This document shows, in pieces, positions 15,931 to 61,360 of a stretch of DNA of 64,000 nt (positions are counted from its first letter, which is position 1; the number at the start of each line of letters is the position of its first letter). This stretch comes from Octopus vulgaris (lineage: Eukaryota): contig CATOCA020000002.1 of the NCBI GenBank assembly GCA_951406725.2, positions 124,001 through 188,000 of the forward strand. Direction: 5' to 3'. The notes beneath the pieces were generated by a model that was given only the letters and a program-made list of their open reading frames with translations, searched no databases and had not been told where the DNA came from. Position numbers and translations under genes: made by a program.

Positions 15931-16064
15931 TTAAAAGTGAAACAATACAAAAGTGAAAATATTATATCACATTACAAAAAAAATGTTATTGTTTCCTTTT
16001 GACATGTAATACTGAAATAGTCTAAGAGATTGCTCCAGGCTTGCATTAGGCAATACATACATAC

Positions 16065-39764: not shown

Positions 39765-40385
39765 TCTATTCCATATATTATATATATAAAACTGAGAATG
39801 TGTGTCTGTCTGTCTGTGTGTTTCCCTAAAACTTGAGAACTACACAACCAATTTCATTAAAACTTTACACATGCCTTACTTAGGGTCCGGGGAGTGTCAT
39901 CGGCAAAAAATTTTTTTAACCTTTTGCCTAGGGCGAGCCCACAGCAATATTATATCTTCTCCACTATGATTCCCTAAAACTTGAATACTACACAACCAAT
40001 TCCATTCAAATTTTACACATGCCTTACTTAGGGTCCACGTAGTTTCATGGGCAAAAAAAATGTTCAACTTCTTGTCTAGATCGAGCCCATAGCAACATCA
40101 TATCTTCTCCACTATTTCAGTATTACGTGTTAAAAGTGAAACAAAAACGTTTCTCTATTTTATGTCAGATACTTTCACTTTAACAGTAAAAATAATAATA
40201 ACAATTGAATTATATGTAGTAAGTAATAATTAAAATCAAACTAAAGTATAATATAATCGTAACATATCAAAAGTAAAAATAGCAATTGGTATAAAATTGC
40301 ATCAATGATTTGAACTTGAATAAGTGGTTTCACATGAATGGGAATAAATTAAAAATAAAATTAGTGTGCAGAAATGGAATAGTCC
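39765..40385 (+). mobile_element. Helitron-like non-autonomous element, 5' portion, with an internal ~150-bp duplication
   Basis: tc..tatatataaaactgagaatgtgtgtctgtctgtctg start. ccctaaaacttga..ctacacaaccaatt..cttacttagggtcc occurs at ~39824 and ~39971. The exact 5' end is uncertain. Confidence 0.5.
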
Positions 40386-40405
40386 AGATGGATAATAAAA
40401 AATTA

Positions 40406-40478
40406 AATTAAAGAAAAGACTATTGTCTATAAAGTATACAATGTAGAGAAAAAAGAAGATTTGAACACATCGAGGAAA
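40406..40478 (+). pseudogene. 5' part of an older Tx1-like ORF1 fragment interrupted by the array
   Basis: IKEKTIVYKVYNVEK/RFEHIEE (one frameshift in an A run) aligns to EKKRIIYKTYDTTTRMIQTIEE of the autonomous ORF1. Confidence 0.7.
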
Positions 40479-42249
40479 TTTACCCACGTGTGTTGTTATC
40501 TGTGATTAGACGTTGAAATTTTGTTGTGTAAAGTGATTAATATCGCGCGAGGCATTTGCCTCCACGTTTGGAAACCTTCCGAAGAAGGTGAATTGACCCT
40601 CTAGTCATGGCGACTTACGCGGGGGTCACGGGAAAGAATAATAGTGATTTGGCAATAATCGTGAAGGATGTTTTCTTTGAGAAGAGTAAACTCAAAGAAT
40701 ATGAAAAACTATTCAAAAGGGAGGGTGATAGCGTGAAGCTAATCCCCCCGCGAAAGCAAAAGAGGACAAAGAAAACAAGACTGTAACATATAGAACCCAA
40801 GAAAAAAATACAAAGAAACTGGCAAGAGTGGAGATAGCAGAAATTGAAAAATGTCTGGGAGACATAATGGGGAAATCGACCTACGTGAGTAGAGGCAAGA
40901 AATTTGGTACGGTGGAGGTGAGATATGCAACGGAAGAAATTGCAGCCTCACTGGCTACCACTGTACTAAGAGCGGAAACATTTATAATGTGGCCCTCATA
41001 CAAGGGAAGAAGAGGGGTCCGGGTTAAAATCCCGAATATACCCCCAGAAGTAAAAACAGAATGGCTGGCAACAGCTATTCTAGGAGCAGCAGAAGAGGAA
41101 GTGGAGGTGGAATCCTTTAAGGAGTCCAACGTGATAAACTGGAGAGGATATGGGGTGGAACTGTGTTTGATGGCCACAAAAGAGGACATTGAAAGGTTCC
41201 CCTACAGAATAGAAATTGAAGATGAGAAAACCCTCAGTGTAATTGTAGAGGGAAGAAAGCCAAACTGCTACTTGTGCGGGACAAGGGGGCACATTAAAAA
41301 AGAGTGCCCGTTATACGAATTCGTAGCGGAGTGCGAGCAGGAGCTCGAAAAGAAGAATACGGTAAATGAAAAAGAAAACATAGAAAAGGAAACAAAACAA
41401 CAAGAGAAAGGAAATAATAAGTCAATGAAGGAAAAAGAAATAAAAGAAAAGAAAGAAATAGAACCAAAACAGAGTCAGGAAAAGAAAAAGGAAAAAGAAA
41501 CAACAGGAAAAAAACAAGAGAGAGATCAGAACCAAACGAAAAGAAAAGACGGCACACAAAAAGAAAAAGAAAAGGAACATAAAACACGAGAGAAAGATAG
41601 AACAGACAAAGAACCAAAAAGACAAGAGAAGGAAGAGGAAAGAAAAGAAGGCAAAAAGAGAGAAAGAGAGAAACAAAGAGAGGAGAACAAGGAAGAAATA
41701 AGCCCGAAAAGAAAAACGAGGGAAAACGTAGGACGGAAACAAGATCACGGCTTCTACAAGTTAGTAACCTTCCATTTCTGCCCTGAAATGAAAGAATTGA
41801 CAAGTAGTACGGAGGGACATATATGGGTCGACAGGATGACCGATCAGTGGCAGGAGACTGCTCTAATCCCCGAAGAAAGAGTCGCTGAGTTCCTCAGAGC
41901 TGCCGGTGAGAGTGTAACATTTTACACGAGTGTTCGAGTGAGAGAGCGGCTGCCTGAGGGCTCAGTGATAGACTTTAGAGAATTGAAAACTATCATGGAA
42001 TATGTATAGAAATGTGAGAAGAGAGAGAAGAAAGAAGAGAAAAAAGAAAATATTGTGAAATATATGTGACGAAAATGTAACCTCTCGATTCCGGGGATCG
42101 AGTGGGCATTTACATCTCATTGTAAATATTCTTTCATATGTCATTTTTTACTTTTATTTTTTCCTTTTCTTGTCATTCGCTTTCTTATTTTAAGTTCCCC
42201 GATTGTATTGTCCCCTCTATGTTCGCCCCTTGTGGGTAATAATAAAATC
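40479..42249 (+). mobile_element. ORF1-only non-autonomous LINE derivative (HAL1-like), copy 1
   Basis: ATG at 40607, frameshift in a C6 run, ORF ends 42009. RRM-like RGKKFGTVEVR, CCHC knuckle CYLCGTRGHIKKEC and a K/E-rich region; no RT. Bounded by ACATCGAGGAAA. Confidence 0.9.
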
Positions 42250-42261
42250 ACATCGAGGAAA

Positions 42262-43253
42262 TTTACCCACGTGTGTTGTTATCTGTGACTAGACAGTGAA
42301 ATTTTGTTCGGTGTAAATTGATTAATATCGCGCGAGGCGTTTGCCTCCACGTGTGGAAACGTTCCGAAGAAGGTGAATTGACCCTCTAGTCATGGCGACT
42401 TACGCGGGGGTCACGGGAAAAAATAATGATTCGTCGATAATCGTGAAGGATGTTTTCTTTGAGAAGGATAAACTCAAAGAATATGAAAAGCTTTTCAAAA
42501 GGGAGGGTGATAGCGTGAAGCTAATCCCCCCCCCCCCCCCCGCGAAAGCAAAAGAGGACAAAGAAAGCAAGACAGTGACATATAGAACCCAAGACAAAAA
42601 TACGAAGAAGCTGGCTAGAGTGGAGATAGCCGAAATTGAAAAATGTCTGGGAGACATAATGGGGAAATCAACCTACGTGAGTAGAGGCAAGAAATTTGGT
42701 ACGGTGGAGGTGAGATGTGCAACGGAAGAAATTGCAGCCTCACTGGCTACCACTGTACTAAGAGCGGAAAAATTTATAATGTGGCCCTCATACAAGGGAA
42801 GAAGAGGGGTCCGGGTTAAAATCCCGAATATACCCCCAGAAGTGAAAACAGAATGGCTGGCAACAGCTATTCTAGGAGCAGCAGAAGAGGAAGTGGAGGT
42901 GGAATCCTTTAAGGAGTCCAACGCGGTAAACTGGAGAGGATATGGGGTAGAACTGTGTTTGATGGCCACAAAAGAGGACATTGAAAGGTTCCCCTACAGA
43001 ATAGAAATTGAAGATGAAAAAACCCTCAGTGTAATTGTAGAGGGAAGAAAACCAAACTGTTACTTGTGCGGGACAAGGGGGCACATTAAAAAAGAGTGCC
43101 CGTTATACGAATTCGTAGCGGAGTGCGAGCAGGAACCTGAAGAAAAGAAGAATACGGTAAATGAAAAAGAAAACATAGAAAAGGAAACAAAACAACAAGA
43201 GAAAGGAAATAATAAGTCAATGAAGGAAAAAGAAATAAAAGAAAAGAAAGAAA
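42262..43253 (+). mobile_element. ORF1-only element copy 2, 3'-truncated
   Basis: ORF from ATG 42392 is in frame through a C16 run. It is cut at gaaagaaa|tttaccc where copy 3 begins. Confidence 0.9.
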
Positions 43254-45003
43254 TTTACCCACGTGTGTTGTTATCTGTGACTAGACAGTGAAATTTTGTT
43301 CGGTGTAAATTGATTAATATCGCGCGAGGCGTTTGCCTCCACGTGTGGAAATGTTCTGAAGAAGGTGAATTGACCCTCTACGGGAAAAAATAATGATTCG
43401 TCGATAATCGTGAAGGATGTTTTCTTTGAGAAGGATAAACTCAAAGAATATGAAAAGCTTTTCAAAAGGGAGGGTGATAGCGTGAAGCTAATCCCCCCCC
43501 GCGAAAGCAAAAGAGGACAAAGAAAGCAAGACAGTGACATATAGAATCCAAGACAAAAATACGAAGAAGCTGGCTAGAGTGGAGATAGCCGAAATTGAAA
43601 AATGTCTGGGAGACATAATGGGGAAATCAACCTATGTGAGTAGAGGCAAGAAATTTGGTACGGTGGAGGTGAGATGTGCAACGGAAGAAATTGCAGCCTC
43701 ACTGGCTACCACTGTACTAAGAGCGGAAAAATTTATAATGTGGCCCTCATACAAGGGAAGAAGAGGGGTCCGGGTTAAAATCCCGAATATACCCCCAGAA
43801 GTGAAAACAGAATGGCTGGCAACAGCTATTCTAGGAGCAGCAGAAGAGGAAGTGGAGGTGGAATCCTTTAAGGAGTCCAACGCGGTAAACTGGAGAGGAT
43901 ATGGGGTAGAACTGTGTTTGATGGCCACAAAAGAGGACATTGAAAGGTTCCCCTACAGAATAGAAATTGAAGATGAAAAAACCCTCAATGTAATTGTAGA
44001 GGGAAGAAAACCAAACTGTTACTTGTGCGGGACAAGGGGGCACATTAAAAAAGAGTGCCCGTTATACGAATTCGTAGCGGAATGCGAGCAGGAACTTGAA
44101 GAAAAGAAGAATACGGTAAATGAAAAAGAAAACATAGAAAAGGAAACAAAACAACAAGAGAAAGGAAATAATAAGTCAATGAAGGAAAAAGAAATAAAAG
44201 AAAAGAAAGAAATAGAACCAAAACAGAGTCAGGAAAAAAAAAAGGAAAAAGAAACAACAGGAAAAAAACAAGAGAGAGATCAGAATCAAACGAAAAGAAA
44301 AGACGGCACACAAAAAGAAAAAGAAAAGGAACATAAAACACGAGAGAAAGAGAGAACAGACAAAGAACCAAAAAGACAAGAGAAGGAAGGAGAAAGAAAA
44401 GAAGGCAAAAAGAGAGAAAGAGAGAAACAAAGAGAGGAGAACAAGGAAGAAATAAGCCCGAAAAGAAAAATGAAGGAAAACGTAGGACGGAAACAAGATT
44501 ACTGCTTCTACAAGTTAGTAACCTTCCATTTCTGCCCTGAAATGAAAGACTTGACATGTAATACGGAGGGACATATATGGGTCAACAGGATGACCGATCA
44601 GTGGCAGGAGACTGCTCTAATCCCCGAAGAAAGAGTCGCTGAGTTCCTCAGAGCTGCCGGAGAGAGTGTAATATTTTACACGAGTGTTCGAGTGAGAGAG
44701 CGGCTGCCTGAGGGCTCAGTGATGGACTTTAGAGAATTGAAAGCTATTATGGAATATGTATAGAATTGTGAGAACAGAGAGAAGAAAGAAGAGAAAAAAG
44801 AAAATTTTGTGAAATATATGTGACGAAAATGTAACCTCTCGATTCCGGGGATCGAGTGGGCATTTACATCTCATTGTAAATATTCTTTCATATGTCATTT
44901 TTTACTTTTATTTTTTCCTTTTCTTGTCATTCGCTTTCTTATTTTAAGTTCCCCGATTGTATTGTCCCATCTATGTTCGCCCCTTGTGGGTAGTAATAAA
45001 ATC
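43254..45003 (+). mobile_element. ORF1-only element copy 3
   Basis: ORF 43534-44763. A ~25-bp deletion near 43380 removes the ATG. Full 3' terminus present. Confidence 0.9.
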
Positions 45004-45015
45004 ACATCGAGGAAA

Positions 45016-48000
45016 TCAATTTTTTGCGTTATTAGTAAGTTGATATATATTTTTGCTCTCGTACTATTATCTCTGTTATTATATACTGTTGGTCTACCTG
45101 TTTTGTCTATTGTTGTCTAACTGACGAAGTCAGCCTTCGCGCGAAGACTTCGCGTTGGTGTTCCCCCCTCAGTGGGGGAAAACTACAATTAATTTGGATT
45201 TACCAAAGGCTTGTTAAAGCCATTTGTTCAAGATGGAGTCCCCCATCTCTTATTCGCCCGTGACGAGCGAGGATGAATACCCGGCGTTGTCGCCAGGAAA
45301 AAAAGAGGCGTTGTCGCCAAGAAAAAAAGAGGCGTTGTCGCCGAAGAAAAAAGAGGCGGCGTCGCCCAAGAAAATGGAAAAACCAGTACCAGCATCAACT
45401 CCAGCAAAAAAATTCGCTGAAGTGGCTGGGAAAAAGATCAAAAAATAAATATAGAAAATTTTGGAAAATTTGCAGACTGTGTTAAAAAAGAAGGCACAGA
45501 AGTGACTGTGGCCACAAATATACAAAAACATGACGAGATAGAAAAAAAAAGAATAATATTTAAAACTTACGACACAACGACAAAAATGATACAAAAAATC
45601 GAAGAAAAAAAATAGAGTATTGTCTAAAACCTTTTATGGATAAAATAACGTATATAAACAGAGGAAAAAGATACGGCACAGTGGAGGTGCGTTTTACTAC
45701 GGAGGAGATAGCGAAGAAAATATCAATGGAGCCGATCAAAGCGGAAAACATTGTCTTACTACCATTGTATAAAGGAAAAAGGACGTCGAAAATTTCAATG
45801 AACAACATACCGCCAGAGGCAGATGCTGAATGCCTAGTGGCAGCAGTGATGGTAGGTCTGGAGGAAAAAATAAACATCCTCCAGGCCACAGTGGAGGAAG
45901 AGGAGTTCTGGAAAGGGCAGAAAATAGTGATAGCCATTCAGGCAGAAGTGCAAACCCTGGAAGAGATCCCAGAGACTCTTAGGATAAGCGAAGATGAAAG
46001 AGTCACAGTCTTCGTAGAGGGCAGAAAGCCGAGGTGCTTCGGCTGCGGTAAGAAGGGGCATGTAAGGGCGGAATGCCAGCCCCAACCCAAACCGCAGGAA
46101 GCACCTAAGCCAAAAGAAAAAGAAGACAATGTGTCACCAGAAGCAGCGTCAGACGGCCCAGAAGGGAAGACTGAAGGTGTGGAGGTGAGTGACAGCAGAA
46201 CCAGCGGCGGAGGAAAAAAAGAGCGAGGAAAAGATAAATGAGGAGGGGTGGGCAAAAATTATCGGAAAAAAAAAAAGAAAAACGGAAACCACCCCTCCCA
46301 GAGTAATTTTAAAAAAGAAAAAAGAGTCAATAAACTCATATATGGCCGTAAAAGCATCAAATAGCAGACTCGGAAACGTGTTGGCAGCCATGGCCAAAGT
46401 GAAGAAAGTAGAGAAAAAAAATGACTTTGTAATTTACAGAATAGACCGGAAGGATTACGGGCGGATAAAGTCAGAATTCTTCCATGACGTAGGCCCACTT
46501 AGGTTGGATGTGACATCTCCACATATATTCGAGGGCCTACGTCAGACTCCCCCACGAGGCCCAGAAAAAGAGTTAGAGAAGAAGAAAAACCGAACCACTG
46601 ATATAAAGGTAAGTAATGGATTACATTTATGTTGGTTGTTTAAATGTGCGCGGCCTGGGAGCAGGCTGGAAGCAAGGTCGCTTCCTGCATGATATCAGGT
46701 CGCGTAATTTAGATGTTATTGTTGCTACAGAAACCCGGTTAGAGGGGCCAAGAGGTCTACTCCCGCTGTTTGACGGCTACGAGAGTTTTTTCTCTCCTGG
46801 CAGTCCTACAGGCGGGAGTGGGGTGTTGGTCCTATTAAAAAGAAACCGGGTTTCTGAGAAAAAGTTAATTTTTGCAGATCCAGAAGGTAGGCTGGTCGTC
46901 ATGGATTTGACGTTCAGTAATGGTAAAGTTATCAGACTGGTTGCAATTTACGCACCCAACCATACAGGGCAAAGTGATTATTTTCGTGAACTAGAAAACT
47001 TTCTTGGTACTTCGCATTCATTAGTGGTGCTAGGAGACTTTAACACAATTTGCAAAGCGGATGTAGATTATGTTGGCTCGTGTCCAGACAGAAAAGGCAA
47101 CAGTGGCTTCATGGAACTGCTAAGCCGCTTTGAGCTAGCAGATCCTTATAGGCTGGAATTTCCGAACGCTCCATTGTGGACATGGTCAGACAGCGACGGA
47201 TCTTCCAGGTCATATTTAGATAGAATACTAATTAGAAAAGTAGACAGTAAAATAGCTAAGTGTCCACAGTTTTACCCGATCAGCTACAGTGATCATAAAA
47301 TGGTCACTTGTAAGCTTGACATAGATAAGGTTAAAAATAGAGGATCCGGTTACTGGAAACTTAATACGTCCCTTTTGGCGATTAAGGAGTACAAAGACCG
47401 GATTAGGAATATAATTCAGAGGGCACTATCTGGTACCATCATTAATAACAAATGGTGGTACGCCCTCAAACGAGCCATCAAGTTTGAGTCTATTAGATAT
47501 AGCATAGGAGTAGTGGCTAGAGAGGCTAGAAGGGAAACTACTCTAGTTAAGGAATTAGAGGAAGCCATGAAAACTGGCTCTGCGGCTCAGGTGGCGTCCA
47601 AGAGACTGGTGTTAAACCAGCACCTCGAGGCCAAACACATGGGCAGCATTGTCAGGGCTAGAATCCGCCATATGGGATGTGAAGGAATCAACGCCGTGAG
47701 ATGGGCCCGAGTGGTGGAAGCTCAGCATGGTAACGATGCCACGATTCGATCTTTGCCGAACCAACAAGGTGAGTTGATAAACGAACCCGAGGAGATGTGT
47801 GAGGCCTTTCAGGAGCACTTCGCTCAGCTTTTCGGTGAGTGCGGCGGGCTGGATAGGAAGAGGGCCTTTACGGACCTACTCGACGGTCTGCCGCGCTTAT
47901 CGCGGCGAGATACGGAGGGCTGTGAAGGTCCAATCACGCCTGAGGAGGTGGTTGAGGCAATGGCGGACTGCGGCGCGGGCAAGGTGCCGGGTTTGGATGG

Positions 48001-50259
48001 TCTACCCTATGAGTTATATAAGAGTATGCCAGACTTGTTCGGGCACCTACTGGCGGAGGTCTATGCGAACTGGCAGCAGAACGGGCTTATACCCAGATCT
48101 GTGCGCCGGGGAGTAGTGACTCTCGTCAGAAAGGACCCGAGCAAGGGGGAGTGTATTGATAATTTCAGGCCCATCACTCTGCTAAACACAGAGTTGAAGA
48201 TTTTGGCCAAAGTGTTATCGAAAAGATTGGCCGCGTGTCGCGGATGGTCTGATCGGAGGGGCACAGACATGTGCCGTTCCGGGCAGATCCATTCAGGATA
48301 ATCTCCATCTAATGCGGTACACTATAGAGGGGTTTAATAGTGATTCTGGCAAGGGTGGGGCACTGGTCCATTTAGACCAATCTAAAGCTTTTGATAGGGT
48401 CGACCATCGTTACCTGGTATCTGCCCTGGCACAGTTCGGGCTGAGCCTTGGATTCCTCAGGTGGATTATCCAAATTTATGATAACATCGACTCGGTAGTT
48501 CGGGTGAACGGCTTCTTGTCGAAGCCGTTCAAAATCAAACGCTCGGTTCGTCAAGGGTGTCCGCTCTCCCCGCTTTTGTACGTGATGGCTCTTGAGCCAT
48601 TACTGCGAAAACTGAGCGGCATCCCGAGACAGCCAGGTAATGGAAAATCAGTGTCAGCGTACGCGGATGACATCACCATCATCGTAACCGAAATGGACCA
48701 CCTATGTAAAGTAGGCAAGGCCATAGAGGTGTACGAGACGGTGACAGGAGCAAAAGTTAATCGCGAAAAGTCAGTCGGCTTGCAACTCGGCACCTGGAGA
48801 GGCAAGTCGATGCCTCCTGACAGCGTCGTGGGACGTTGGACGGAGGGTCCGATTAAACTGCTAGGGGTCTGGTTCGGTCCAGACCTCCAAATAGAGAAGA
48901 ATTGGGGCGAGGTAACGAGCAAGGTGGCTGCAGTAGCCAAGACCTGGTCTTGGCGGTGGCTATCCCTGAAAGGGAGGGCGGAGGTGGCCAATGTGTTTAT
49001 CGCATCGGTTATCACCTACCGCCTTTCCGTCGTTCCTTGCCCTGATTCGTGGTTGATCAAGTTGGAAAGACAGCTCTTCTACTTCTTGTGGAAGGGCGGG
49101 AAACCACTTGTGAAACGCTCTACTTGCTGTCAACAACCGTTAAAGGGTGGGCTAGGGATGCCTTGGCTGATGATGCGCAGACATGCGCTGAGGTTAAGAC
49201 ATCTGTGGCTCTACCTGGATGGTGAACGGGTGTGGTCTTCGCTAGCAAAACTGATGTTTCCCAAGTTCACTAGTTTCGGTGGATGGGAAACCTGGCTGAA
49301 TCGTAGATCGAAACTTGGTACTTGGTACACGGAGTGTCGCAAGGCTCTCCTGCTATTCCGTCGCTCGGGCAACGCCTGCGGTGGGGGTTCCACCCACATT
49401 CTTCTATAGAGGGTTGGTAGAGGCGGAATGTGAAGATACCTTGGGGGAAACCCTGGGTCTCGACGATAATCAGCTGGCCAGTCTGTTCCGACGTACGTTC
49501 GAGCCGAGGACACCGGACAACTTCCAGAAGTCTCTGGCATGGCAATGCTACAGAGGAGCTCTACCTGTTCGGGATAAACTCGCAAGGCACGGTGGCCAAG
49601 ACAGTCCGATATGTCCAAGATGCGGGCGGGATAGGGAAACCGTCCCGCACGCTATTGTTCATTGTCCGGACGTGTCTGAGGTGTGGGTTTATGCCGAACA
49701 CCTGTTGTCAGGTACACGAAGAGTACAGCTGTCGACTGAGTCGATTACAAAAATTGACCCACCGGATTTCCTCGTGAATGAAGGTAAGTTTCGTTTTCTC
49801 GTTGTAGTAGCAATCGCGAAAGAGGTGATATGGAAGACGAGAATGAAAGGTTTACAGTCAGGCAAGTTCATCTCCGGCCCTGGTTTGATGAATTATTTCA
49901 TCTTTCACCTGAAAAGGAAGATAGGGCTGGAGAGAATATGCCTGACTAGGAGAGTGTATGAAGAACGATGGAAGGATGTAGCACGAAAGTTGCGAGTGAA
50001 AGACACAACATAAATGTAATACCAAGCGCAACCAAAAGTATCAGTGGGGAGGCGGGGCTCGTGGGGTCCGAGCTAAACCCGCACCCACTCCACCCGTAAT
50101 GTTTTCCGGTCTGTCCCATCATCCGATTTCTGTCCATTTATTGTAATTCATGAAAATTTTTAAATTCGATTTATTGTAAAAACCCATTCGTGTGTCTGAC
50201 CCCATCATCAGATTGTATTGTCCCATCTATGTTCGCCCCTTGTGGGTAATAATAAAACA
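45016..50259 (+). mobile_element. Full-length Tx1/L1-group LINE, copy 1
   Basis: ORF1 from 45233 with CCHC CFGCGKKGHVRAEC and frameshifts. ORF2 46616-50013 has frameshifts near 48231 and 49393. Confidence 0.95.
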
Positions 50260-50271
50260 ACATCGAGGAAA

Positions 50272-53200
50272 TCAATTTTTTGCGTTATTAGTAAGTTGAT
50301 ATATATTTTTGCTCTTGTACTATTATCTCTGTTATTATATACTGTTGGTCTACCTGTTTTGTCTATTGTTGTCTAACTGACGAAGTCAGCCTTCGCGCGA
50401 AGACTTCGCGTTGGTGTTCCCCCCTCCGTGGGGGAAAACTACAATTAATTTGGATTTACCAAAGGCTTGTTAAAGCCATTCGTTCAAGATGGAGTCCCCC
50501 ATCTCTTATTCGCCCGTGACGAGCGAGGATGAATACCCGGCGTTGTCGCCAGGAAAAAAAGAGGCGTTGTCGCCAAGAAAAAAAGAGGCGCTGTCGCCGA
50601 AGAAAAAAGAGGCGGCGTCGCCCAAGAAAATGGTAAAACCAGTACCAGCATCAACTCCAGCAAAAAAATTCGCTGAAGTGGCTGGGAAAAAAATTAAAAA
50701 AATTAACGTGGACAACCTGGGAAAATTTGCAGACTGTGTAAAAAAAGAAGGCACAGAAGTGACTGTGGCCACAAACTTACAAAAACATGACGAGATAGAA
50801 AAAAAAAGAATAATATATAAAACTTACGACACAACGACAAGAATGATCCAAACAATCGAAGAAAAAAAGTAGAGTTTTGTCTAAAACCTTTTATGGATAA
50901 AATAACGTATATAAACAGAGGAAAAAGATACGGCACAGTGGAGGTGCGTTTTACTACGGAGGAGACAGCGAAGAAACTATCAATGGAGCCAATCAAAGCG
51001 GAAAACATTGTCTTACTACCATTGTATAAAGGAAAAAGGACGTCGAAAATTTCAATGAACAACATACCGCCAGAGGCAGATGCTGAATGTCTGGTGGCAG
51101 CAGTGATGGTAGGCCTGGAGGAAAAAATAAACATCCTCCAGGCCACAGTGGAGGAAGAGGAGTTTTGGAAAGGGCAAAAAATAGTGATAGCCATTCAGGC
51201 GGAGGTGCAAACACTGGAAGAAATTCCAGAAACGGTAAAGATTAGTGAAGACGAGAAAATAACAGTTTTCGTGGAGGGCAGGAAGCCGAGGTGCTTCGGC
51301 TGCGGTAAGAAGGGGCATGTAAGGGCGGAATGCCACCCCAACCCAAACCGCAGGAAGCACCTAAGCCAAAAGGAAAAAGAAGACAATGTGTCACCAGAAG
51401 CAGCGTCAGACGGCCCAGAAGGGAAGACTGAAGGTGTGGAGGTGATGGTAACAGCAGAACCAGCGGCGGAGGAAAAAAAGAGCGAGGAAAAGATAAATGA
51501 GGAGGGGTGGGCAAAAATTATCGGAAAAAAAAAAAGAAAAACGGAAACCACCCCTCCCAGAGTAATTTTAAAAAAGAAAAAAGAGTCAATGAACTCATAT
51601 ATGGCCGTAAAAGCATCAAATAGCAGACTCGGAAACGTGTTGGCAGCCATGGCCAAAGTGAAGAAAGTAGAGAAAAAAATGACTTTGTAATTTACAGAAT
51701 AGACCGGAAGGATTACGGGCGGATAAAGTCAGAATTCTTCCATGACGTAGGCCCACTTAGATTGGATGTGACATCTCCACATATATTCGAGGGCCTACGT
51801 CAGACTCCCCCATGAGGCCCAGAAAAAAAAGAGTTAGAAGAACAAGAGAAAACCGAACCACTGATATAAGGTAAGTAATGGATTACATTTATGTTGGTTG
51901 TTTAAATGTGCGCGGCCTGGGAGCAGGCTGGAAGCAAGGTCGCTTCCTGCATGATATCAGGTCGCGTAATTTAGATGTTATTGTTGCTACAGAAACCCGG
52001 TTAGAGGGGCCAAGAGGTCTACTCCCGCTGTTTGACGGCTACGAGAGTTTTTTCTCTCCTGGCAGTCCTACAGGCGGGAGTGGGGTGTTGGTCCTATTAA
52101 AAAGAAACCGGGTTTCTGAGAAAAAGTTAATTTTTGCAGATCCAGAAGGTAGGCTGGTCGTCATGGATTTGACGTTCAGTAATGGTAAAGTTATCAGACT
52201 GGTTGCAATTTACGCACCCAACCATACAGGGCAAAGTGATTATTTTCGTGAACTAGAAAACTTTCTTGGTACTTCGCATTCATTAGTGGTGCTAGGAGAC
52301 TTTAACACAATTTGCAAAGCGGATGTAGATTGTGTTGGCTTGCGTCCAGATAGAAAAGGCTTCATGGAACTGCTAAGCTGCTTTGAGCTAGCAGATCCTT
52401 ATAGGCTGGAATTTCCGAACGCTCCATTGTGGACATGGTCAAACAGCGACGGATCTTCCAGGTCATATTTAGATAGAATACTAATTAGAAAAGTAGACAG
52501 TAAAATAGCTAAGTGTCCACAGTTTTACCCGATCAGCTACAGTGATCATAAAATGGTCACTTGTAAGCTTGACATAGATAAGGTTAAAAATAGAGGATCC
52601 GGTTACTGGAAACTTAATACGTCCCTTTTGGCGATTAAGGAGTACAAAGACCGGATTAGGAATATAATTCAGAGGGCACTATCTGGTACCATCATTAATA
52701 ACAAATGGTGGTACGCCCTCAAACGAGCCATCAAGTTTGAGTCTATTAGATATAGCATAGGAGTAGTGGCTAGAGAGGCTAGAAGGGAAACTACTCTAGT
52801 TAAGGAATTAGAGGAAGCCATGAAAACTGGCTCTGCGGCTCAGGTGGCGTCCAAGAGACTGGTGTTAAACCAGCACCTCGAGGCCAAACACATGGGCTGC
52901 ATTGTCAGGGCTAGAATCCGTCATATGGGATGTGAAGGAATCAACGCCGTGAGATGGGCCCGAGTGGTGGAAGCTCAGCATGGTAACGATGCCACGATTC
53001 GATCTTTGCCGAACCAACAAGGTGAGTTGATAAACGAACCCGAGGAGATGTGTGAGGCCTTTCAGGAGCACTTCGCTCAGCTTTTCGGTGAGTGCGGCGG
53101 ACTGGATAGGAGGAGGGCCTTTACGGACCTACTCGACGGGCTGCCGCGCTTATCGCGGCGAGATGCGGAGGGCTGTGAAGGGCCAATCACGCTTGAGGAG

Positions 53201-55508
53201 GTGGTTGAGGCAATGGCGGATTGCGGCGCGGGCAAGGCGCCGGGTTTGGATGGTCTACCCTATGAGTTATATAAGAGTATGCCAGACTTGTTCGGGCACC
53301 TACTGGCGGAGGTCTATGCGAATTGCCAGCAGAACGGGCTTATACCCAGATCTGTGCGCCGGGGAGTAGTGACTCTCGTCAGAAAGGACCCGAGCAAGGG
53401 GGAGTGCATTGATAATTTCAGGCCCATCACTCTGCTAAACACAGAGTTGAAGATTTTGGCCAAAGTGTTATCGAAAAGATTGGCGCGTGTCGCGGATGGT
53501 CTGATCGGAGGGGCACAGACATGTGCCGTTCCGGGCAGATCCATTCAGGATAATCTCCATCTAATGCGGTACACTATAGAGGGGTTTAATAGTGATTCTG
53601 GCAAGGGTGGGGCACTGGTCCATTTAGACCAATCTAAAGCTTTTGATAGGGTCGACCATCGTTACCTGGTATCTGCCCTGGCACAGTTCGGGCTGAGCCT
53701 TGGCTTCCTCAGGTGGATTATCCAAATTTATGATAACATCGACTCGGTAGTTCGGGTGAACGGCTTCTTGTCGAAGCCGTTCAAAATCAAACGCTCGGTT
53801 CGTCAAGGGTGTCCGCTCTCCCCGCTTTTGTACGTGATGGCTCTTGAGCCATTACTGCGAAAACTGAGCGGCATCCCGAGACAGCCAGGTAATGGAAAAT
53901 CAGTGTCAGCGTACGCGGATGACATCACCATCATCGTAACCGAAATGGACCACCTATGTAAAGTAGGCAAGGCCATAGAGGTTTACGAGACGGTGACAGG
54001 AGCAAAAGTTAATCGCGAAAAGTCAGTCGGCTTGCAACTCGGCACCTGGAGAGGCAAGTCGATGCCTCCTGACAGCGTCGTGGGACGTTGGACGGAGGGT
54101 CCGATTAAACTGCTAGGGGTCTGGTTCGGTCCAGACCTCCAAATAGAGAAGAATTGGGGCGAGGTAACGAGCAAGGTGGCTGCAGTAGCCAAGACCTGGT
54201 CTTGGCGGTGGCTATCCCTGAAAGGGAGGGCGGAGGTGGCCAATGTGTTTATCGCATCGGTTATCACCTACCGCCTTTCCGTCGTTCCTTGCCCTGATTC
54301 GTGGTTGATCAAGTTGGAAAGACAGCTCTTCTACTTCTTGTGGAAGGGCGGGAAACCACTTGTGAAACGCTCTACTTGCTGTCAACAACCGTTAAAGGGT
54401 GGGCTAGGGATGCCTTGGCTGATGATGCGCAGACATGCGCTGAGGTTAAGACATCTGTGGCTCTACCTGGATGGTGAACGGGTGTGGTCTTCGCTAGCAA
54501 AACTGATGTTTCCCAAGTTCACTAGTTTCGGTGGATGGGAAACCTGGCTGAATCGTAGATCGAAACTTGGTACTTGGTACACGGAGTGTCGCAAGGCTCT
54601 CCTGCTATTCCGTCGCTCGGGCAACGCCTGCGGTGGGGGTTCCACCACATTCTTCTATAGAGGGTTGGTAGAGGCGGAATGTGAAGATACCTTGGGGGAA
54701 ACCCTAGGTCTCGACGATAATCAGCTGGCCAGTCTGTTCCGACGTACGTTCGAGCCGAGGACACTGGACAACTTCCAGAAGTCTCTGGCATGGCAATGCT
54801 ACAGAGGAGCTCTACCTGTTCGGGATAAACTCGCAAGGCACGGTGGCCAAGACAGTCCGATATGTCCAAGATGCGGGCGGGATAGGGAAACCGTCCCGCA
54901 CGCTATTGTTCATTGTCCGGACGTGTCTGAGGTGTGGGTTTATGCCGAACACCTGTTGTCAGGTACACGAAGAGTACAGCTGTCGACTGAGTCGATTACA
55001 AAAATTGACCCACCGGATTTCCTCGTGAATGAAGGTAAGTTTCGTTTTCTCGTTGTAGTAGCAATTGCGAAAGAGGTGATATGGAAGACGAGAATGAAAG
55101 GTTTACAGTCAGGCAAGTTCATCTCCGGCCCTGGTTTGATGAATTATTTCATCTTTCACCTGAAAAGGAAGATAGGGCTGGAGAGAATATGCCTGACTAG
55201 GAGAGTGTATGAAGAACGATGGAAGGATGTAGCACGAAAGTTGCGAATGAAAGTTACAACATAAATGTAATACCAAGTGCAACCAAAAGTATCAGTGGGG
55301 AGGCGGGGCTCGTGGGGTCCGAGCTAAACCCGCACCCACTCCACCCGTAATGTCTTCCGGTCTGTCCATCACTCGATTTTTGTCCATTTATTGTAATTCA
55401 TGAAAATTTTAAATTCGATTTATTGTAAAAACCCATTCGTGTGTCTGACCCCATCATCAGATTGTATTGTCCCATATTTGTTCGCCCCTTGTGGGTAATA
55501 ATAAAACA
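50272..55508 (+). mobile_element. Full-length Tx1/L1-group LINE, copy 2
   Basis: ORF1 from 50489 is frameshifted mainly in homopolymer runs. ORF2 is intact. Confidence 0.95.
51878..55264 (+). CDS. Intact LINE ORF2: APE endonuclease, reverse transcriptase, C-terminal CCHC
   Basis: 1128 aa. LNVRGL, ATET, LGDFN, YLDRIL, SDH; GYWKLN; FRPITLLN, LDQSKAFDRV, RQGCPLSPLLY, YADD; GGLG; CPRC..ETVPHAIVHC. Confidence 0.95.
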   Translation: MDYIYVGCLNVRGLGAGWKQGRFLHDIRSRNLDVIVATETRLEGPRGLLPLFDGYESFFSPGSPTGGSGVLVLLKRNRVSEKKLIFADPEGRLVVMDLTFSNGKVIRLVAIYAPNHTGQSDYFRELENFLGTSHSLVVLGDFNTICKADVDCVGLRPDRKGFMELLSCFELADPYRLEFPNAPLWTWSNSDGSSRSYLDRILIRKVDSKIAKCPQFYPISYSDHKMVTCKLDIDKVKNRGSGYWKLNTSLLAIKEYKDRIRNIIQRALSGTIINNKWWYALKRAIKFESIRYSIGVVAREARRETTLVKELEEAMKTGSAAQVASKRLVLNQHLEAKHMGCIVRARIRHMGCEGINAVRWARVVEAQHGNDATIRSLPNQQGELINEPEEMCEAFQEHFAQLFGECGGLDRRRAFTDLLDGLPRLSRRDAEGCEGPITLEEVVEAMADCGAGKAPGLDGLPYELYKSMPDLFGHLLAEVYANCQQNGLIPRSVRRGVVTLVRKDPSKGECIDNFRPITLLNTELKILAKVLSKRLARVADGLIGGAQTCAVPGRSIQDNLHLMRYTIEGFNSDSGKGGALVHLDQSKAFDRVDHRYLVSALAQFGLSLGFLRWIIQIYDNIDSVVRVNGFLSKPFKIKRSVRQGCPLSPLLYVMALEPLLRKLSGIPRQPGNGKSVSAYADDITIIVTEMDHLCKVGKAIEVYETVTGAKVNREKSVGLQLGTWRGKSMPPDSVVGRWTEGPIKLLGVWFGPDLQIEKNWGEVTSKVAAVAKTWSWRWLSLKGRAEVANVFIASVITYRLSVVPCPDSWLIKLERQLFYFLWKGGKPLVKRSTCCQQPLKGGLGMPWLMMRRHALRLRHLWLYLDGERVWSSLAKLMFPKFTSFGGWETWLNRRSKLGTWYTECRKALLLFRRSGNACGGGSTTFFYRGLVEAECEDTLGETLGLDDNQLASLFRRTFEPRTLDNFQKSLAWQCYRGALPVRDKLARHGGQDSPICPRCGRDRETVPHAIVHCPDVSEVWVYAEHLLSGTRRVQLSTESITKIDPPDFLVNEGKFRFLVVVAIAKEVIWKTRMKGLQSGKFISGPGLMNYFIFHLKRKIGLERICLTRRVYEERWKDVARKLRMKVTT

Positions 55509-55520
55509 ACATGGAGGAAA

Positions 55521-58500
55521 TCAATTTTTTGCGTTTATTAGTAAGTTAATATATTTTTGCTCTCGTACTATTATCTCTGTTATTATATACTGTTGGTCTA
55601 CCTGTTTTGTCTATTGTTGTCTAACTGACGAAGTCAGACTTCGCGTTGGTGTTCCCCCCTCCGTGGGGGAAAACTACAATTAATTTGGATTTACCAAAGG
55701 CTTGTTAAAGCCATTTGTTCAAAATGGAGTCCCCCATCACTTATTCGCCCGTGACGAGCGAGGATGAATACCCGGCGTTGTCGCCAAGTAAAAAAGAGGC
55801 GTTGTCGCCAAGAAAAAAAGAGGCGCTGTCGCCGAAGAAAAAAGAGGCGGCGTCGCCCAAGAAAATGGTAAAACCAGTACCAGCATCAACTCCAGCAAAA
55901 AAATTCGCTGAAGTGGCTGGGAAAAAATTAAAAAAATTAACGTGGACAACCTGGGAAAACATGCAGACTGTGAAAAAAGAGGGCACAGAAGTAACCGTGG
56001 CTTCAAACGCCAAAATACAGAGGATATTTCGAATAGGAGAATAATCTATAAGACATTCAGTATAACAAACAGAGCAATCCAAAAAATAGAAGAAAAAAGA
56101 TTGAAAACTGCTTAAAACCAATAATGGACAAAATTACGTATATCAATCGAGGGAAGAAATACGGCACAGTGGAGGTGAGATTCACGTCAGAGGAGGTAGC
56201 AAAGAAGCTATCCATGGAACCCATAAAAGCGGAAATATTGTCTACTACCATTGTATAAAGGAAAAAGGACGTCAAAATCACAATGAACAACATCCCGCCA
56301 GAAGCGGATGCGAATGTCTGGTGGCAGCAGTTATGGTAGGCCTGGAGGAAAAAATAAACATCCTCCAGGCCACAGTAGAGAAGAAGAATTCTGGAAAGGG
56401 CAAAAGATAATAATAGCCATTCAAGCAGAGGTGCAAACCCTGGAAGAGATTCCAGAGACTCTTAAAGATAAGCGAAGATGAAAAGTCACAGTCTTCGTAG
56501 AGGGCAGAAAGCCGAGGTGCTTCGGCTGCGGTAAGAAGGGGCATGTAAGGGCGGAATGCCAACCCCAACCCAAACCGCAGGAAGCACCTAAGCCAAAAGG
56601 AAAAGAAGACAATGTGTCACCAGAAGCAGCGTCAGACGGCCCAGAAGGGAAGACTGAAGGTGTGGAGGTGATGGTGACAGCAGAACCAGCGGCGGAGGAA
56701 AAAAAGAGCGAGGAAAAGATAAATGAGGAGGGGTGGGCAAAAATTATCGGAAAAAAAAAAAGAAAAACGGAAACCACCCCTCCCAGAGTAATTTTAAAAA
56801 AGAAAAAAGAGTCAATAAACTCATATATGGCCGTAAAAGCATCAAATAGCAGACTCGGAAACGTGTTGGCAGCCATGGCCAAAGTGAAGAAAGTAGAGAA
56901 AAAAATGACTTTGCAATTTACAGAATAGACCGGAAGGATTACGGGCGGATAAAGTCAGAATTCTTCCATGACGTAGGCCCACTTAGGTTGGATGTAACAT
57001 CTCCACATATATTCGAGGGCCTACGTCAGACTCCCCCACGAGGCCCAGAAAAAAAGAGAAGAAGAAGAAAAACCGAACCACTGATATAAAGGTAAGTAAT
57101 GGATTACATTTATGTTGGTTGTTTAAATGTGCGCGGCCTGGGAGCAGGCTGGAAGCAAGGTCGCTTCCTGCATGATATCAGGTCGCGTAATTTAGATGTT
57201 ATTGTTGCTACAGAAACCCGGTTAGAGGGGCCAAGAGGTCTACTCCCGCTGTTTGACGGCTACGAGAGTTTTTTCTCTCCTGGCAGTCCTACAGGCGGGA
57301 GTGGGGTGTTGGTCCTATTAAAAAGAAACCGGGTTTCTGAGAAAAAGTTAATTTTTGCAGATCCAGAAGGTAGGCTGGTCGTCATGGATTTGACGTTCAG
57401 TAATGGTAAAGTTATCAGACTGGTTGCAATTTACGCACCCAACCATACAGGGCAAAGTGATTATTTTCGTGAACTAGAAAACTTTCTTGGTACTTCGCAT
57501 TCATTAGTGGTGCTAGGAGACTTTAACACAATTTGCAAAGCGGATGTAGATTGTGTTGGCTCGTGTCCAGATAGAAAAGGCAACAGTGGCTTCATGGAAC
57601 TGCTAAGCCGCTTTGAGCTAGCAGATCCTTATAGGCTGGAATTTCCGAACGCTCCATTGTGGACATGGTCAAACAGCGACGGATCTTCCAGGTCATATTT
57701 AGATAGAATACTAATTAGAAAAGTAGACAGTAAAATAGCTAAGTGTCCACAGTTTTACCCGATCAGCTACAGTGATCATAAAATGGTCACTTGTAAGCTT
57801 GACATAGATAAGGTTAAAAATAGAGGATCCGGTTACTGGAAACTTAATACGTCCCTTTTGGCGATTAAGGAGTACAAAGACCGGATTAGGAATATAATTC
57901 AGAGGGCACTATCTGGTACCATCATTAATAACAAATGGTGGTACGCCCTCAAACGAGCCATCAAGTTTGAGTCTATTAGATATAGCATAGGAGTAGTGGC
58001 TAGAGAGGCTAGAAGGGAAACTACTCTAGTTAAGGAATTAGAGGAAGCCATGAAAACTGGCTCTGCGGCTCAGGTGGCGTCCAAGAGACTGGTGTTAAAC
58101 CAGCACCTCGAGGCCAAACACATGGGCTGCATTGTCAGGGCTAGAATCCGTCATATGGGATGTGAAGGAATCAACGCCGTGAGATGGGCCCGAGTGGTGG
58201 AAGCTCAGCATGGTAACGATGCCACGATTCGATCTTTGACGAACCAACAAGGTGAGTTGATAAACGAACCCGAGGAGATGTGTGAGGCCTTTCAGGAGCA
58301 CTTCGCTCAGCTTTTCGGTGAGTGCGGCGGACTGGATAGGAGGAGGGCCTTTACGGACCTACTCGACGGTCTGCCGCGCTTATCGGGGCGAGATGCGGAG
58401 GGCTGTGAAGGGCCAATCACGCCTGAGGAGGTGGTTGAGGCAATGGCGGACTGCGGCGCGGGCAAGGCGCCGGGTTTGGATGGTCTACCCTATGAGTTAT

Positions 58501-60739
58501 ATAAGAGTATGCCAGACTTGTTCGGGCACCTACTGGCGGAGGTCTATGCGAACTGGCAGCAGAACGGGCTTATACCCAGATCTGTGCGCTGGGGAGTAGT
58601 GACTCTCGTCAGAAAGGACCCGAGCAATGGGGGAGTGCATTGATAATTTCAGGCCCATCACTCTGCTAAACACAGAGTTGAAGATTTTGGCCAAAGTGTT
58701 ATCGAAAAGATTGGCGCGTGTCGCGGATGGTCTGATCGGAGGGGCACAGACATGTGCCGTTCCGGGCAGATCCATTCAGGATAATCTCCATCTAATGCGG
58801 TACACTATAGAGGGGTTTAATAGTGATTCTGGCAAGGGTGGGGCACTGGTCCATTTAGACCAATCTAAAGCTTTTGATAGGGTCGACCATCGTTACCTGG
58901 TATCTGCCCTGGCACAGTTCGGGCTGAGCCTTGGCTTCCTCAGGTGGATTATCCAAATTTATGATAACATCGACTCGGTAGTTCGGGTGAACGGCTTCTT
59001 GTCGAAGCCGTTCAAAATCAAACGCTCGGTTCGTCAAGGGTGTCCGCTCTCCCCGCTTTTGTACGTGATGGCTCTTGAGCCATTACTGCGAAAACTGAGC
59101 GGCATCCCGAGACAGCCAGGTAATGGAAAATCAGTGTCAGCGTACGCGGATGACATCACCATCATCGTAACCGAAATGGACCACCTATGTAAAGTAGGCA
59201 AGGCCATAGAGGTTTACGAGACGGTGACAGGAGCAAAAGTTAATCGCGAAAAGTCAGTCGGCTTGCAACTCGGCACCTGGAGAGGCAAGTCGATGCCTCC
59301 TGACAGCGTCGTGGGACGTTGGACGGAGGGTCCGATTAAACTGCTAGGGGTCTGGTTCGGTCCAGACCTCCAAATAGAGAAGAATTGGGGCGAGGTAACG
59401 AGCAAGGTGGCTGCAGTAGCCAAGACCTGGTCTTGGCGGTGGCTATCCCTGAAAGGGAGGGCGGAGGTGGCCAATGTGTTTATCGCATCGGTTATCACCT
59501 ACCGCCTTTCCGTCGTTCCTTGCCCTGATTCGTGGTTGATCAAGTTGGAAAGACAGCTCTTCTACTTCTTGTGGAAGGGCGGGAAACCACTTGTGAAACG
59601 CTCTACTTGCTGTCAACAACCGTTAAAGGGTGGGCTAGGGATGCCTTGGCTGATGATGCGCAGACATGCGCTGAGGTTAAGACATCTGTGGCTCTACCTG
59701 GATGGTGAACGGGTGTGGTCTTCGCTAGCAAAACTGATGTTTCCCAAGTTCACTAGTTTCGGTGGATGGGAAACCTGGCTGAATCGTAGATCGAAACTTG
59801 GTACTTGGTACACGGAGTGTCGCAAGGCTCTCCTGCTATTCCGTCGCTCGGGCAACGCCTGCGGTGGGGGTTCCACCACATTCTTCTATAGAGGGTTGGT
59901 AGAGGCGGAATGTGAAGATACCTTGGGGGAAACCCTAGGTCTCGACGATAATCAGCTGGCCAGTCTGTTCCGACGTACGTTCGAGCCGAGGACACTGGAC
60001 AACTTCCAGAAGTCTCTGGCATGGCAATGCTACAGAGGAGCTCTACCTGTTCGGGATAAACTCGCAAGGCACGGTGGCCAAGACAGTCCGATATGTCCAA
60101 GATGCGGGCGGGATAGGGAAACCGTCCCGCACGCTATTGTTCATTGTCCGGACGTGTCTGAGGTGTGGGTTTATGCCGAACACCTGTTGTCAGGTACACG
60201 AAGAGTACAGCTGTCGACTGAGTCGATTACAAAAATTGACCCACCGGATTTCCTCGTGAATGAAGGTAAGTTTCGTTTTCTCGTTGTAGTAGCAATTGCG
60301 AAAGAGGTGATATGGAAGACGAGAATGAAAGGTTTACAGTCAGGCAAGTTCATCTCCGGCCCTGGTTTGATGAATTATTTCATCTTTCACCTGAAAAGGA
60401 AGATAGGGCTGGAGAGAATATGCCTGACTAGGAGAGTGTATGAAGAACGATGGAAGGATGTAGCACGAAAGTTGCGAGTGAAAGATACAACATAAATGTA
60501 ATACCAAGTGCAACCAAAAGTATCAGTGGGGAGGCGGGGCTCGTGGGGTCCGAGCTAAACCCGCACCCACTCCACCCGTAATGTCTTCCGGTCTGTCCAT
60601 CATTCGATTTCTGTCCATTTATTGTAATTCATGAAAATTTTTAAACCCGATTTATTGTAAAAACCCATTCGTGTGTCTGACCCCATCATCAGATTGTATT
60701 GTCCCATCTATGTAGCCCCTAGTGGGTAATAATAAAACA
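55521..60739 (+). mobile_element. Full-length Tx1/L1-group LINE, copy 3
   Basis: ORF1 has a diverged N-terminal segment and several frameshifts. ORF2 57099-60495 has one frameshift near 58627. Confidence 0.95.
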
Positions 60740-60751
60740 ACATGGAGGAAA

Positions 60752-61050
60752 GCACCTTCGAAAAGTGTCTTGGTGCGACTATGAAAGGTATCTAATCAGA
60801 GGCGGTAAATTTGCCACAATAGAAGCAAGGTTCGAGTCAACGGAGCGTGCAAGGGAGTACTCGACTCGAACTTGCAAAGTGGAAATATTTTATTTTTACC
60901 TTTATATGAGGAGTAGATAGGACGTCCCGGGAAAAAATTTAACCCCCCCCCCCCCCCGAAGTAGAGGTAGGCTGGATTGTAGCCACACTTCTATACAAGA
61001 AGGAGGACACGATACAATTGATCGAAATTACAAGAGACGGGCTAACAATT
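60752..61050 (+). pseudogene. 3' continuation of the older Tx1-like ORF1 fragment
   Basis: STFEKCLGATMK..RGGKFATIEARFESTERA..GNILFLPLY..PPEVEVGWIVATLL aligns to EIEKCLGDIMGK..RGKKFGTVEVRYATEEIA..PPEVKTEWLATAIL. Confidence 0.8.
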
Positions 61051-61188
61051 CCAGTCTGTTATATATTTTGAGTGTTGTTATCACTAGCGATATCAAGATA
61101 TAACTTTGTATTTTGTATTTTATGTGTAGATGTATATATATAGATGTACATGTAATATGTACACATATATATACACATATATACATGC

Positions 61189-61230
61189 ACTAGCACTATG
61201 ACCCGGCAACGACGGGTCTTTAATGCTAGT
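61189..61230 (+). mobile_element. Helitron-like 3' terminus
   Basis: Hairpin gacccg-gcaacga-cgggtc (61200-61218), 7 nt upstream of CTAG|T (61226-61230). Confidence 0.6.
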
Positions 61231-61266: not shown

Positions 61267-61360
61267 ATATGTATGCAACCTCATCCTCATATACATATAG
61301 GTGCTTACATGCATACACATAACATAATGCATATATATTCAGACATTTATATGTATATAT

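What the first reader, a model, noticed from the sequence alone, without database searches (positions are those of the whole stretch)
39765..61230. Array and interrupted ORF1 fragment appear enclosed by Helitron-like ends
Seen: a Helitron-style 5' region at ~39765 and a hairpin plus CTAG|T at 61200-61230 bracket the ~390-bp old ORF1 fragment, which has tccag near both edges (~40383 and ~61050). The 42-nt end is itself a quasi-palindrome (actagca..tgctagt), so its orientation is ambiguous. Established: Helitrons capture fragments, and Xenopus Tx1L targets a DNA transposon. Inference: a Helitron carrying the captured ORF1 piece may multiply the landing pad, giving three nested levels.
Basis: inference. 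Interest (0 to 1): 0.7.

Follow-up and report, generated by a model that had tools for sequence, protein, structure and literature searches.

The report
Jumping gene spreads another's landing site
In octopus DNA, a small rolling-circle transposon carries a broken scrap of a retrotransposon gene in at least hundreds of copies, and at this locus six retrotransposons of that same lineage have stacked up at one 12-letter site inside the scrap, a new twist on jumping genes that land inside other jumping genes.

Summary
Largely confirmed. A 20.3-kb array (three ORF1-only units A, three full LINEs B) sits in a 12-bp site, repeated at six junctions, inside a decayed LINE ORF1 piece of about 370 bp. 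Contigs of two octopus runs show that the left part of this piece is as repetitive as the Helitron-like body before it. Its summed depth is 7,000-11,000 times the flank, at least about 240-350 copies after the worst overcount. The uninterrupted site occurs in 20 and 14 contigs. The 3' end (hairpin, 7 nt, CTAG|T at 61229) has + polarity, judged from relatives lying downstream of Pif1-helicase pieces. Not shown: the 5' TC start, family linkage of the 3' end by reads, an autonomous partner, Tx1-clade membership, and arrays at other copies. The tccag repeats are chance-level and lie outside the homology edges. Closest known: crocodilian Tx1-Mar and SINEU-3 in Mariner-N4_AMi, and Xenopus Tx1L in Tx1D. 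New here: a Helitron-type host and a target made from the LINE lineage's own ORF1. New variant of a known kind; interest 0.52.

The parts
39765..39821 (+). 5' terminal region of a non-autonomous Helitron-like element: TA-rich run, AAAA, (TGTC)n. Exact first base unresolved (39765-39776).
   Evidence: only one of 3 motif hits with this layout; flank contigs end at 39775 and about 39805; same layout in L001:594-988
39822..40115 (+). Two 148-bp tandem units inside the element
   Evidence: period 148, 2.0 copies, 84% matches; high depth
40116..40393 (+). AT-rich internal body, high copy
   Evidence: summed depth 0.6-1.3 million against a flank of 45.7 and 98
40394..40478 (+). Left part of the decayed LINE ORF1 piece, ending in the 12-bp target copy at 40467-40478
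   Evidence: (loose ends before 40394 and behind 40478)
40479..42249 (+). A1: ORF1-only non-autonomous unit (1771 bp), sharing its last ~45 nt with B
   Evidence: zinc knuckle scored on A2
42250..42261 (+). 12-bp target copy
42262..43253 (+). A2: 3'-truncated A unit, joined to A3 at a 4-nt GAAA overlap without a full target copy
43254..45003 (+). A3: ORF1-only unit
45004..45015 (+). 12-bp target copy
45016..50259 (+). B1: full-length APE-type LINE (ORF1 + ORF2, both frameshifted in this assembly)
50260..50271 (+). 12-bp target copy
50272..55508 (+). B2: full-length LINE with an open 1128-aa ORF2 (51878-55261): endonuclease, RT, zf-RVT
55509..55520 (+). 12-bp target copy with a C-to-G variant shared with the last junction
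55521..60739 (+). B3: full-length LINE with a divergent ORF1 stretch (73 private substitutions in alignment columns 500-999)
60740..60751 (+). Right-hand 12-bp target copy (target-site duplication)
60752..61047 (+). Right part of the decayed ORF1 piece
   Evidence: (tblastn E 2e-6 to 6e-7); its first 30 nt are what follows 40478 in 20 and 14 contigs
61048..61188 (+). 3' internal region with TA/CA-rich stretch; membership in the family not tested by reads
   Evidence: no ORF1 homology
61189..61230 (+). Helitron-type 3' end: hairpin 61200-61218, CTAG 61226-61229, flanking T 61230; extended to a 42-nt quasi-palindrome

Best explanation
Three layers. (1) An old LINE ORF1 gene of the same lineage as A and B decayed, and about 370 bp of it became part of a non-autonomous canonical-type Helitron of about 1.18-1.19 kb. 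Homology is shown; capture by the Helitron is inferred. (2) That element was copied to hundreds or thousands of places, presumably by an autonomous RepHel partner. High copy number of the 5' two-thirds and of the empty target is shown; rolling-circle movement and the link to the 3' end are inferred. (3) An APE-type LINE (B) nicks a 12-bp site inside the captured piece and inserts by target-primed reverse transcription. It also mobilises an ORF1-only partner (A) through a shared 3' end. Each insertion duplicates the 12 bp and so renews the target, and head-to-tail arrays build up. At least the last unit went in at the right-hand site, because a C-to-G variant is shared by the last two junctions only (inferred). 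The LINE most likely adopted the site because it is abundant and harmless to hit. Its origin in ORF1 may be incidental.
For: The 12-bp word occurs at 6 junctions and nowhere else exactly in 64 kb, both strands. ORF1 homology is continuous across the removed array. ORF1-left bins reach 323,049 and 667,533 (X1) and 820,185 and 615,227 (X2), which is 0.54 and 0.82 of the body's median; unit A is only 0.10 and 0.05 of that. The empty-site continuation is seen in 20 and 14 contigs. No loose end is listed where the body meets the ORF1 piece on the body side. A tail+target+A junction occurs in 4 contigs of X1. 3' polarity: the same hairpin-spacer-CTAG|T lies about 310 nt downstream of same-strand Pif1-helicase pieces in L002/L004 (Pfam hits in 2 of 3 pieces, one above its cut-off). 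In L001 a 395-bp element pairs this type of 3' end with a TCTAT...AAAA-(TGTC)n start and a repeated internal unit. The units differ from each other by about 2-4% and unevenly. A and B share their last ~45 nt. Precedent: PMC4494074.
Against: Reads were laid on the left side only; 60782-61229 is untested in other copies. Summed contig depth is not a copy number (tool's warning), and 468 of 486 loose-end rows were not shown. Some contigs depart from the window's form: 18 behind 40355 (X1), and 15 and 13 before 40394, where they continue into more ORF1-like sequence. Part of the depth may therefore come from a longer subfamily or from the donor family. No A|TC start is seen. No second occupied locus was seen. 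The two raw-read runs laid only 2 and 81 reads, mostly under 90% alike, so they gave no copy number. No close donor protein was found. The polarity search was run in one direction only; of its 8 hits, L002/L004 are duplicates, L001/L008 share one end, and L006 looks bacterial.
Confidence: 0.62

Rival explanations
1. The Helitron with its ORF1 piece is a real high-copy family, but the LINE is not specific for it. One chance insertion, or a weak preference, started the array, and it grew by re-insertion at its own renewed junction or by unequal exchange.
For: Only one occupied locus was seen. With thousands of copies of a 1.2-kb family, chance hits are expected (inference). A2/A3 is a deletion-type joint.
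Against: Two different unit types are separated by the same 12 bp. B3 has a distinct ORF1 stretch. The only upstream context listed for A's 5' end, apart from the target itself, is tail+target (18 of 486 rows shown).
Confidence: 0.15
2. The high-copy unit is a composite whose 3' end is not 61229. The 42-nt palindrome is a separate small element or the end of another family, and the ORF1 piece was spread by a carrier with another end or by a longer subfamily.
For: The palindrome sits between two TA-rich stretches and reads CTAG|T on both strands. Alternative continuations exist at 40355 and 40394. No A|TC start.
Against: It is the only + strand 3' end of this type that pairs with the only such 5' layout in the window. 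The same pairing occurs in L001. A mirrored arm also occurs in 2 of 8 motif loci, L001 and L008, so it is compatible with an ordinary end.
Confidence: 0.1
3. Hitchhiking: one Helitron copy received A or B once, and later Helitron copying carried the LINE units around. Shared sites would then reflect one insertion, not many.
For: A is only 1.8 kb and multi-copy (one X2 contig at depth 1666 against a flank of 98). The same worry was raised and tested for SINEU-3 in Mariner-N4_AMi (PMC4494074).
Against: It does not explain six units in register at one locus, nor the variant shared by the last two junctions.
Confidence: 0.05
4. Sibling targeting: the LINE's endonuclease already aimed at this spot in the ORF1 of a sister LINE family, and the Helitron merely captured and multiplied an existing target.
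For: The target lies at conserved ORF1 codons, and B1's own ORF1 has a 2-mismatch version at the homologous place (45596). A longer form of the ORF1 piece exists in three runs.
Against: None of the six units is interrupted at its own ORF1. 2-mismatch words also occur at unrelated places (18 hits in all, 6 of them junctions). No intact donor was found.
Confidence: 0.08

Closest known systems
Crocodilian Tx1-Mar and SINEU-3 in Mariner-N4_AMi (PMC4494074; passages and section 15 read)
   Same: An autonomous LINE and a non-autonomous partner prefer fixed sites in an abundant DNA transposon family (11,801 copies). Tandem SINEU-3 insertions sandwich a target duplication and are read as sequential insertions.
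   Different: The host here is Helitron-type, not Mariner. The partner is an ORF1-only unit, not an snRNA-headed SINE. The target lies in a captured remnant of the LINE lineage's own ORF1. Genome-wide preference was measured there (313 of 347) and is not measured here.
Xenopus Tx1L in Tx1D (cited in PMC4494074, PMC6719617, PMC1950540; passages read)
   Same: An APE-type LINE inserts at a specific sequence in a non-autonomous DNA transposon.
   Different: Tx1D is described as piggyBac-type, and Tx1L endonuclease specificity was shown in vitro. In the L1 alignment B's hairpin-loop region has no gap against human L1, whereas Tx1L's tip is described as extended.
Non-autonomous canonical Helitrons (HLE1) with captured fragments (PMC11417382, PMC4067079; passages read)
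   Same: 3' hairpin plus CTRR followed by T, no target duplication, no subterminal inverted repeats, a captured gene fragment, high copy number.
   Different: 5' TC after an A is not shown, no RepHel partner was found, and the captured piece serves as another element's target.
HAL1 ('half-L1') elements (recalled; PMC5753468 seen as a search listing only)
   Same: A is an ORF1-only unit that shares its 3' end with a full LINE.
   Different: Not compared directly. Here the unit shares a target site and arrays with its partner.
MER6 (PMC6887750; abstract only)
   Same: A retroelement-derived piece spread by the burst of a non-autonomous DNA transposon.
   Different: Mariner MITE with a SINE domain; the abstract reports no targeting.

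Membership tests
Canonical Helitron (HLE1), non-autonomous | 3' hairpin followed by CTRR | tested here: met
   61200-61218 hairpin, 7 nt, CTAG 61226-61229; same motif downstream of Pif1-helicase pieces in L002/L004
Canonical Helitron (HLE1), non-autonomous | 5' end starts with TC | tested here: inconclusive
   TC at 39765 and 39770 both follow T; contig arithmetic points to 39775/39776, which starts TA; the tool masked 39793-39828
Canonical Helitron (HLE1), non-autonomous | Inserts between A and T without a target duplication | tested here: inconclusive
   T follows CTAG; no duplication beyond TA in the flanks; an A|T fit holds only for the 39775/39776 edge; the empty allele's letters were not shown
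Canonical Helitron (HLE1), non-autonomous | Both termini shared by many dispersed copies | tested here: inconclusive
Canonical Helitron (HLE1), non-autonomous | Termini shared with an autonomous RepHel element in the genome | not testable with these tools
   no genome held
HLE2 / Helentron / HINE | Subterminal inverted repeats of 11-18 nt | tested here: not met
   longest exact inverted match between the 5' and 3' ends is a 10-nt TA run
Tx1 clade LINE (unit B) | ORF2 with APE endonuclease and RT; ORF1 with zinc knuckle | tested here: met
   Exo_endo_phos, RVT_1, zf-RVT on B2 ORF2; zf-CCHC on A2 ORF1, none scored on the B2 ORF1 piece though the motif aligns
Tx1 clade LINE (unit B) | RT phylogeny within Tx1 rather than another L1-group clade | not testable with these tools
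   none of 120 listed RT relatives, nor the members read from 8 of their clusters, carries a Tx1 name; no reference sequences held
Target-specific LINE | Same target and duplication at independent insertions | tested here: inconclusive
   met at one locus (6 junctions) and for one further junction type in X1; not counted across loci
Target-specific LINE | Endonuclease nicks the target in vitro | not testable with these tools
   bench test
ORF1 piece as its own retrotransposed insertion | Flanking target duplication and 3' tail | tested here: not met
   tccag is chance-level and off the homology edges; the piece ends in mid-ORF1 with no tail

The most novel reading that the evidence does not exclude
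The LINE lineage targets a spot in the ORF1 of its own relatives. A Helitron captured exactly that spot and copied it to thousands of places, so one transposon class mass-produced the landing sites (or decoys) of another out of that class's own gene. The LINE and its ORF1-only partner now live almost only in these sites, and Helitron copies may carry them onward.
Probability: 0.15. Interest if true: 0.75.

Novelty: new variant of a known kind. Interest (0 to 1): 0.52.

Why it matters
Target-specific LINEs need a multicopy, dispensable target, and how new targets arise is open. Here a target appears to have been created by another transposon: a Helitron-type element amplified a LINE ORF1 remnant, and LINEs of that lineage now stack in it. 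If genome-wide counts confirm the preference, the target's age (the Helitron burst) dates the origin of the specificity. Octopus species with and without the family would then make retargeting testable. It also gives a young, nearly intact APE-type element (open 1128-aa ORF2) with a defined 12-bp site. The general strategy, LINEs homing to DNA transposons, is already known from frog and crocodilians.

Tried and rejected
Whole-genome search: no genome held. tccag as a target duplication: rejected. Other copies of the element in the window: only a 110-bp relative at about 15950-16050 on the - strand (score 82; 200 shuffles: mean 37.7, maximum 62). Two other GCTAG|T ends beside TA runs (11855-, 15421-) have no significant hairpin (z 0.27 and -0.82) and do not align further, so they were not counted. 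Raw-read runs X21 and X22 appear to be other species and gave no copy number. The metagenome scan for the 5' unit found nothing. Donor ORF1: no candidate; best identities among 159 relatives were 52-62% over 13-33 residues. The two alternative continuations seen are absent from the window. No Tx1 name was found among RT relatives. Earlier findings of the scan: nothing. Helentron/HINE: no subterminal repeats. Literature searches gave no listing, and the passages read gave no statement, of a LINE targeting a Helitron. Only listings were seen for most hits, Repbase is not searchable here, and Fig. 3 and the supplements of PMC4494074 and the supplements of PMC13282606 were not seen; they may list such a target or this family.
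Full report
Setting. The window is octopus DNA: the ORF1 of unit A finds 14 proteins, all labelled Octopus, the best six at 43-99% and five of them at 97-99% identity. No whole genome is held, so family-level evidence comes from one laying of public runs and from relatives elsewhere.

The array. Self-comparison shows six head-to-tail units between 40479 and 60739. A1, A2 (3'-truncated) and A3 carry only an ORF1 with a zinc knuckle. B1-B3 are 5.2-kb LINEs; B2 has an open 1128-aa ORF2 with Exo_endo_phos, RVT_1 and zf-RVT. A and B share their last ~45 nt. The word ACAT[CG]GAGGAAA occurs six times, at both array edges and at four of five inner joints, and nowhere else exactly on either strand. The fifth joint (A2/A3) is a 4-nt overlap. 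The G variant is confined to the last two junctions, which fits B3 inserting last, at the right-hand site (inference). B units differ by 91-146 substitutions, unevenly, with 73 private to B3 in one 500-column stretch. Many of the gaps may be homopolymer errors of the assembly (inference).

The ORF1 piece. The right flank hits ORF1 of A and B (tblastn E 2e-6 to 6e-7). With the array removed, a profile of ORF1 aligns in one frame across the target (E-values there are for three frames only). 86 of 159 ORF1 relatives hit the site. Coverage rises at about 40400, ends at 61035-61047 and is zero in the rest of the element. No close donor was found. I reject it as a duplication.

Is the piece multiplied? 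In one search (39500-40800, 85% likeness) the raw-read runs laid only 2 and 81 reads and appear to be other species. The contig sets X1 and X2 (two organism codes) match the flank without a difference, at depth 45.7 and 98. The body (39852-40379) reaches a median summed depth of about 0.9 million. The ORF1-left bins average 495,000 and 718,000, or 0.54 and 0.82 of the body, while unit A is 0.10 and 0.05 of the ORF1 bins. The tool warns that summed depth is no copy number. Behind 40478, 20 contigs in X1 and 14 in X2 go on with the sequence that the window has from 60752: the empty target exists in many variants. Against a simple picture: 18 contigs leave the window's form behind 40355, and 15 and 13 contigs (plus 4 reads in X22) join 40394-40397 from a different upstream sequence. 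By my reading of its translation, that sequence is further ORF1. So a longer subfamily or the donor family also exists. 468 of 486 loose-end rows were not shown.

The ends. The 3' hairpin and CTAG|T are as described, and the 42-nt palindrome folds on both strands. A scan for the + polarity motif gave 8 metagenome loci (one direction only; L002 and L004 are duplicates, L006 looks bacterial). In L002/L004 the motif lies about 310 nt downstream of same-strand helicase pieces (Pif1_2B_dom E 3e-10; PIF1 E 5e-5, below cut-off; third piece none), as a Helitron 3' end should. L001 holds a 395-bp element that starts TCTAT, has AAAA, a (TGTC)n run and a repeated internal unit, and ends in a near-identical hairpin and CTAG|T: the same layout as here. 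L001 and L008 also show a mirrored arm upstream of the hairpin. In the window, 39786 on + is the only one of three 5'-motif hits with this layout. The 5' base is unresolved. Neither TC follows an A. The X2 flank contig ends at 39775, and bin arithmetic fits two continuing contigs of about half depth, only one of which follows the window. That hints at an allele difference at 39775/39776, whose letters I could not see. There are no subterminal inverted repeats, so it is not a Helentron/HINE by the criteria in PMC11417382 and PMC4067079 (passages).

Mechanism. Shown: homology and interruption of the ORF1 piece, the repeated 12 bp, high copy number of body plus piece, empty targets, and a Helitron-type 3' motif. 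Inferred: capture by the Helitron, rolling-circle spread by an unseen RepHel partner, target-primed insertion with renewal of the target, mobilisation of A by B, and genome-wide preference. I put the whole chain at 0.62. Rivals: a non-specific LINE with a local array (0.15), a different 3' end (0.10), sibling targeting (0.08), hitchhiking (0.05).

Comparison. PMC4494074 (passages and section 15) describes Tx1 families that target piggyBac-, Mariner- and Harbinger-type transposons and LTR elements, with a non-autonomous partner in tandem around a target duplication; 'Helitron' does not occur in its main text. PMC6719617, PMC1950540 and PMC4640811 (passages) treat such targeting as a safe-haven strategy. 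PMC13282606 (part 1 of 3 and a term search) lists 13 recently active L1-Tx1 and 8 Helitron families in O. vulgaris, with no use of 'nested' or 'target'. Nine searches showed no LINE targeting a Helitron, but Repbase, figures and supplements were not seen. B works like a Tx1 element; clade membership was not testable.

Verdict. It is a new variant of a known kind: a Helitron-type host and a target made from the LINE lineage's own ORF1. Interest 0.52.

Noticed in passing
window 40479-45003: Unit A is an ORF1-only derivative (about 38% identical to B's ORF1) that shares B's last ~45 nt and its target: a HAL1-like partner (name recalled). Near-identical proteins are annotated as octopus genes.
   Followed up: partly
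window 40394-40433: In run X22 this 37-bp stretch appears to lie in an ~87-bp tandem unit made of ORF1-like sequence (4 reads on each side), while 40204-40379 of the body has no reads.
   Followed up: no
window 39775/39776: Contig arithmetic suggests that run X2 is heterozygous at the element's 5' edge; possibly a presence/absence polymorphism.
   Followed up: partly
window 337-728: Older LINE fragment about 70% identical to the 3' part of B's ORF2.
   Followed up: no
window 33398-34820 and 37724-39159: 1.4-kb inverted duplication at 98.7% identity just left of the element.
   Followed up: no
window 61357-61507 and 62725-63063: Two fold-back palindromes (86% over 153 nt; 78% over 343 nt) right of the element.
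   Followed up: no
window 30970-32907 (-): 645-aa open frame with no Pfam hit at E 0.001 but a CxxC zinc-finger-like pair; probably a host exon, so the array may lie in or near a gene.
   Followed up: partly
window 3767-3922, 6512-6776, 25228-25541: Related 61-62-bp tandem arrays at three places.
   Followed up: no
window 11855 (-) and 15421 (-): Two more GCTAG|T ends facing (TA)n runs, possibly decayed Helitron 3' ends; hairpins not significant.
   Followed up: yes
L001:553-988: Two Helitron-like elements abut: a palindromic 3' end is followed at once by a 395-bp element with the same layout as the octopus one.
   Followed up: partly
P0273 and P0345: Predicted proteins that join an ORF1-like stretch to LDL-receptor repeats or WD40 repeats; perhaps gene-prediction fusions.
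   Followed up: no
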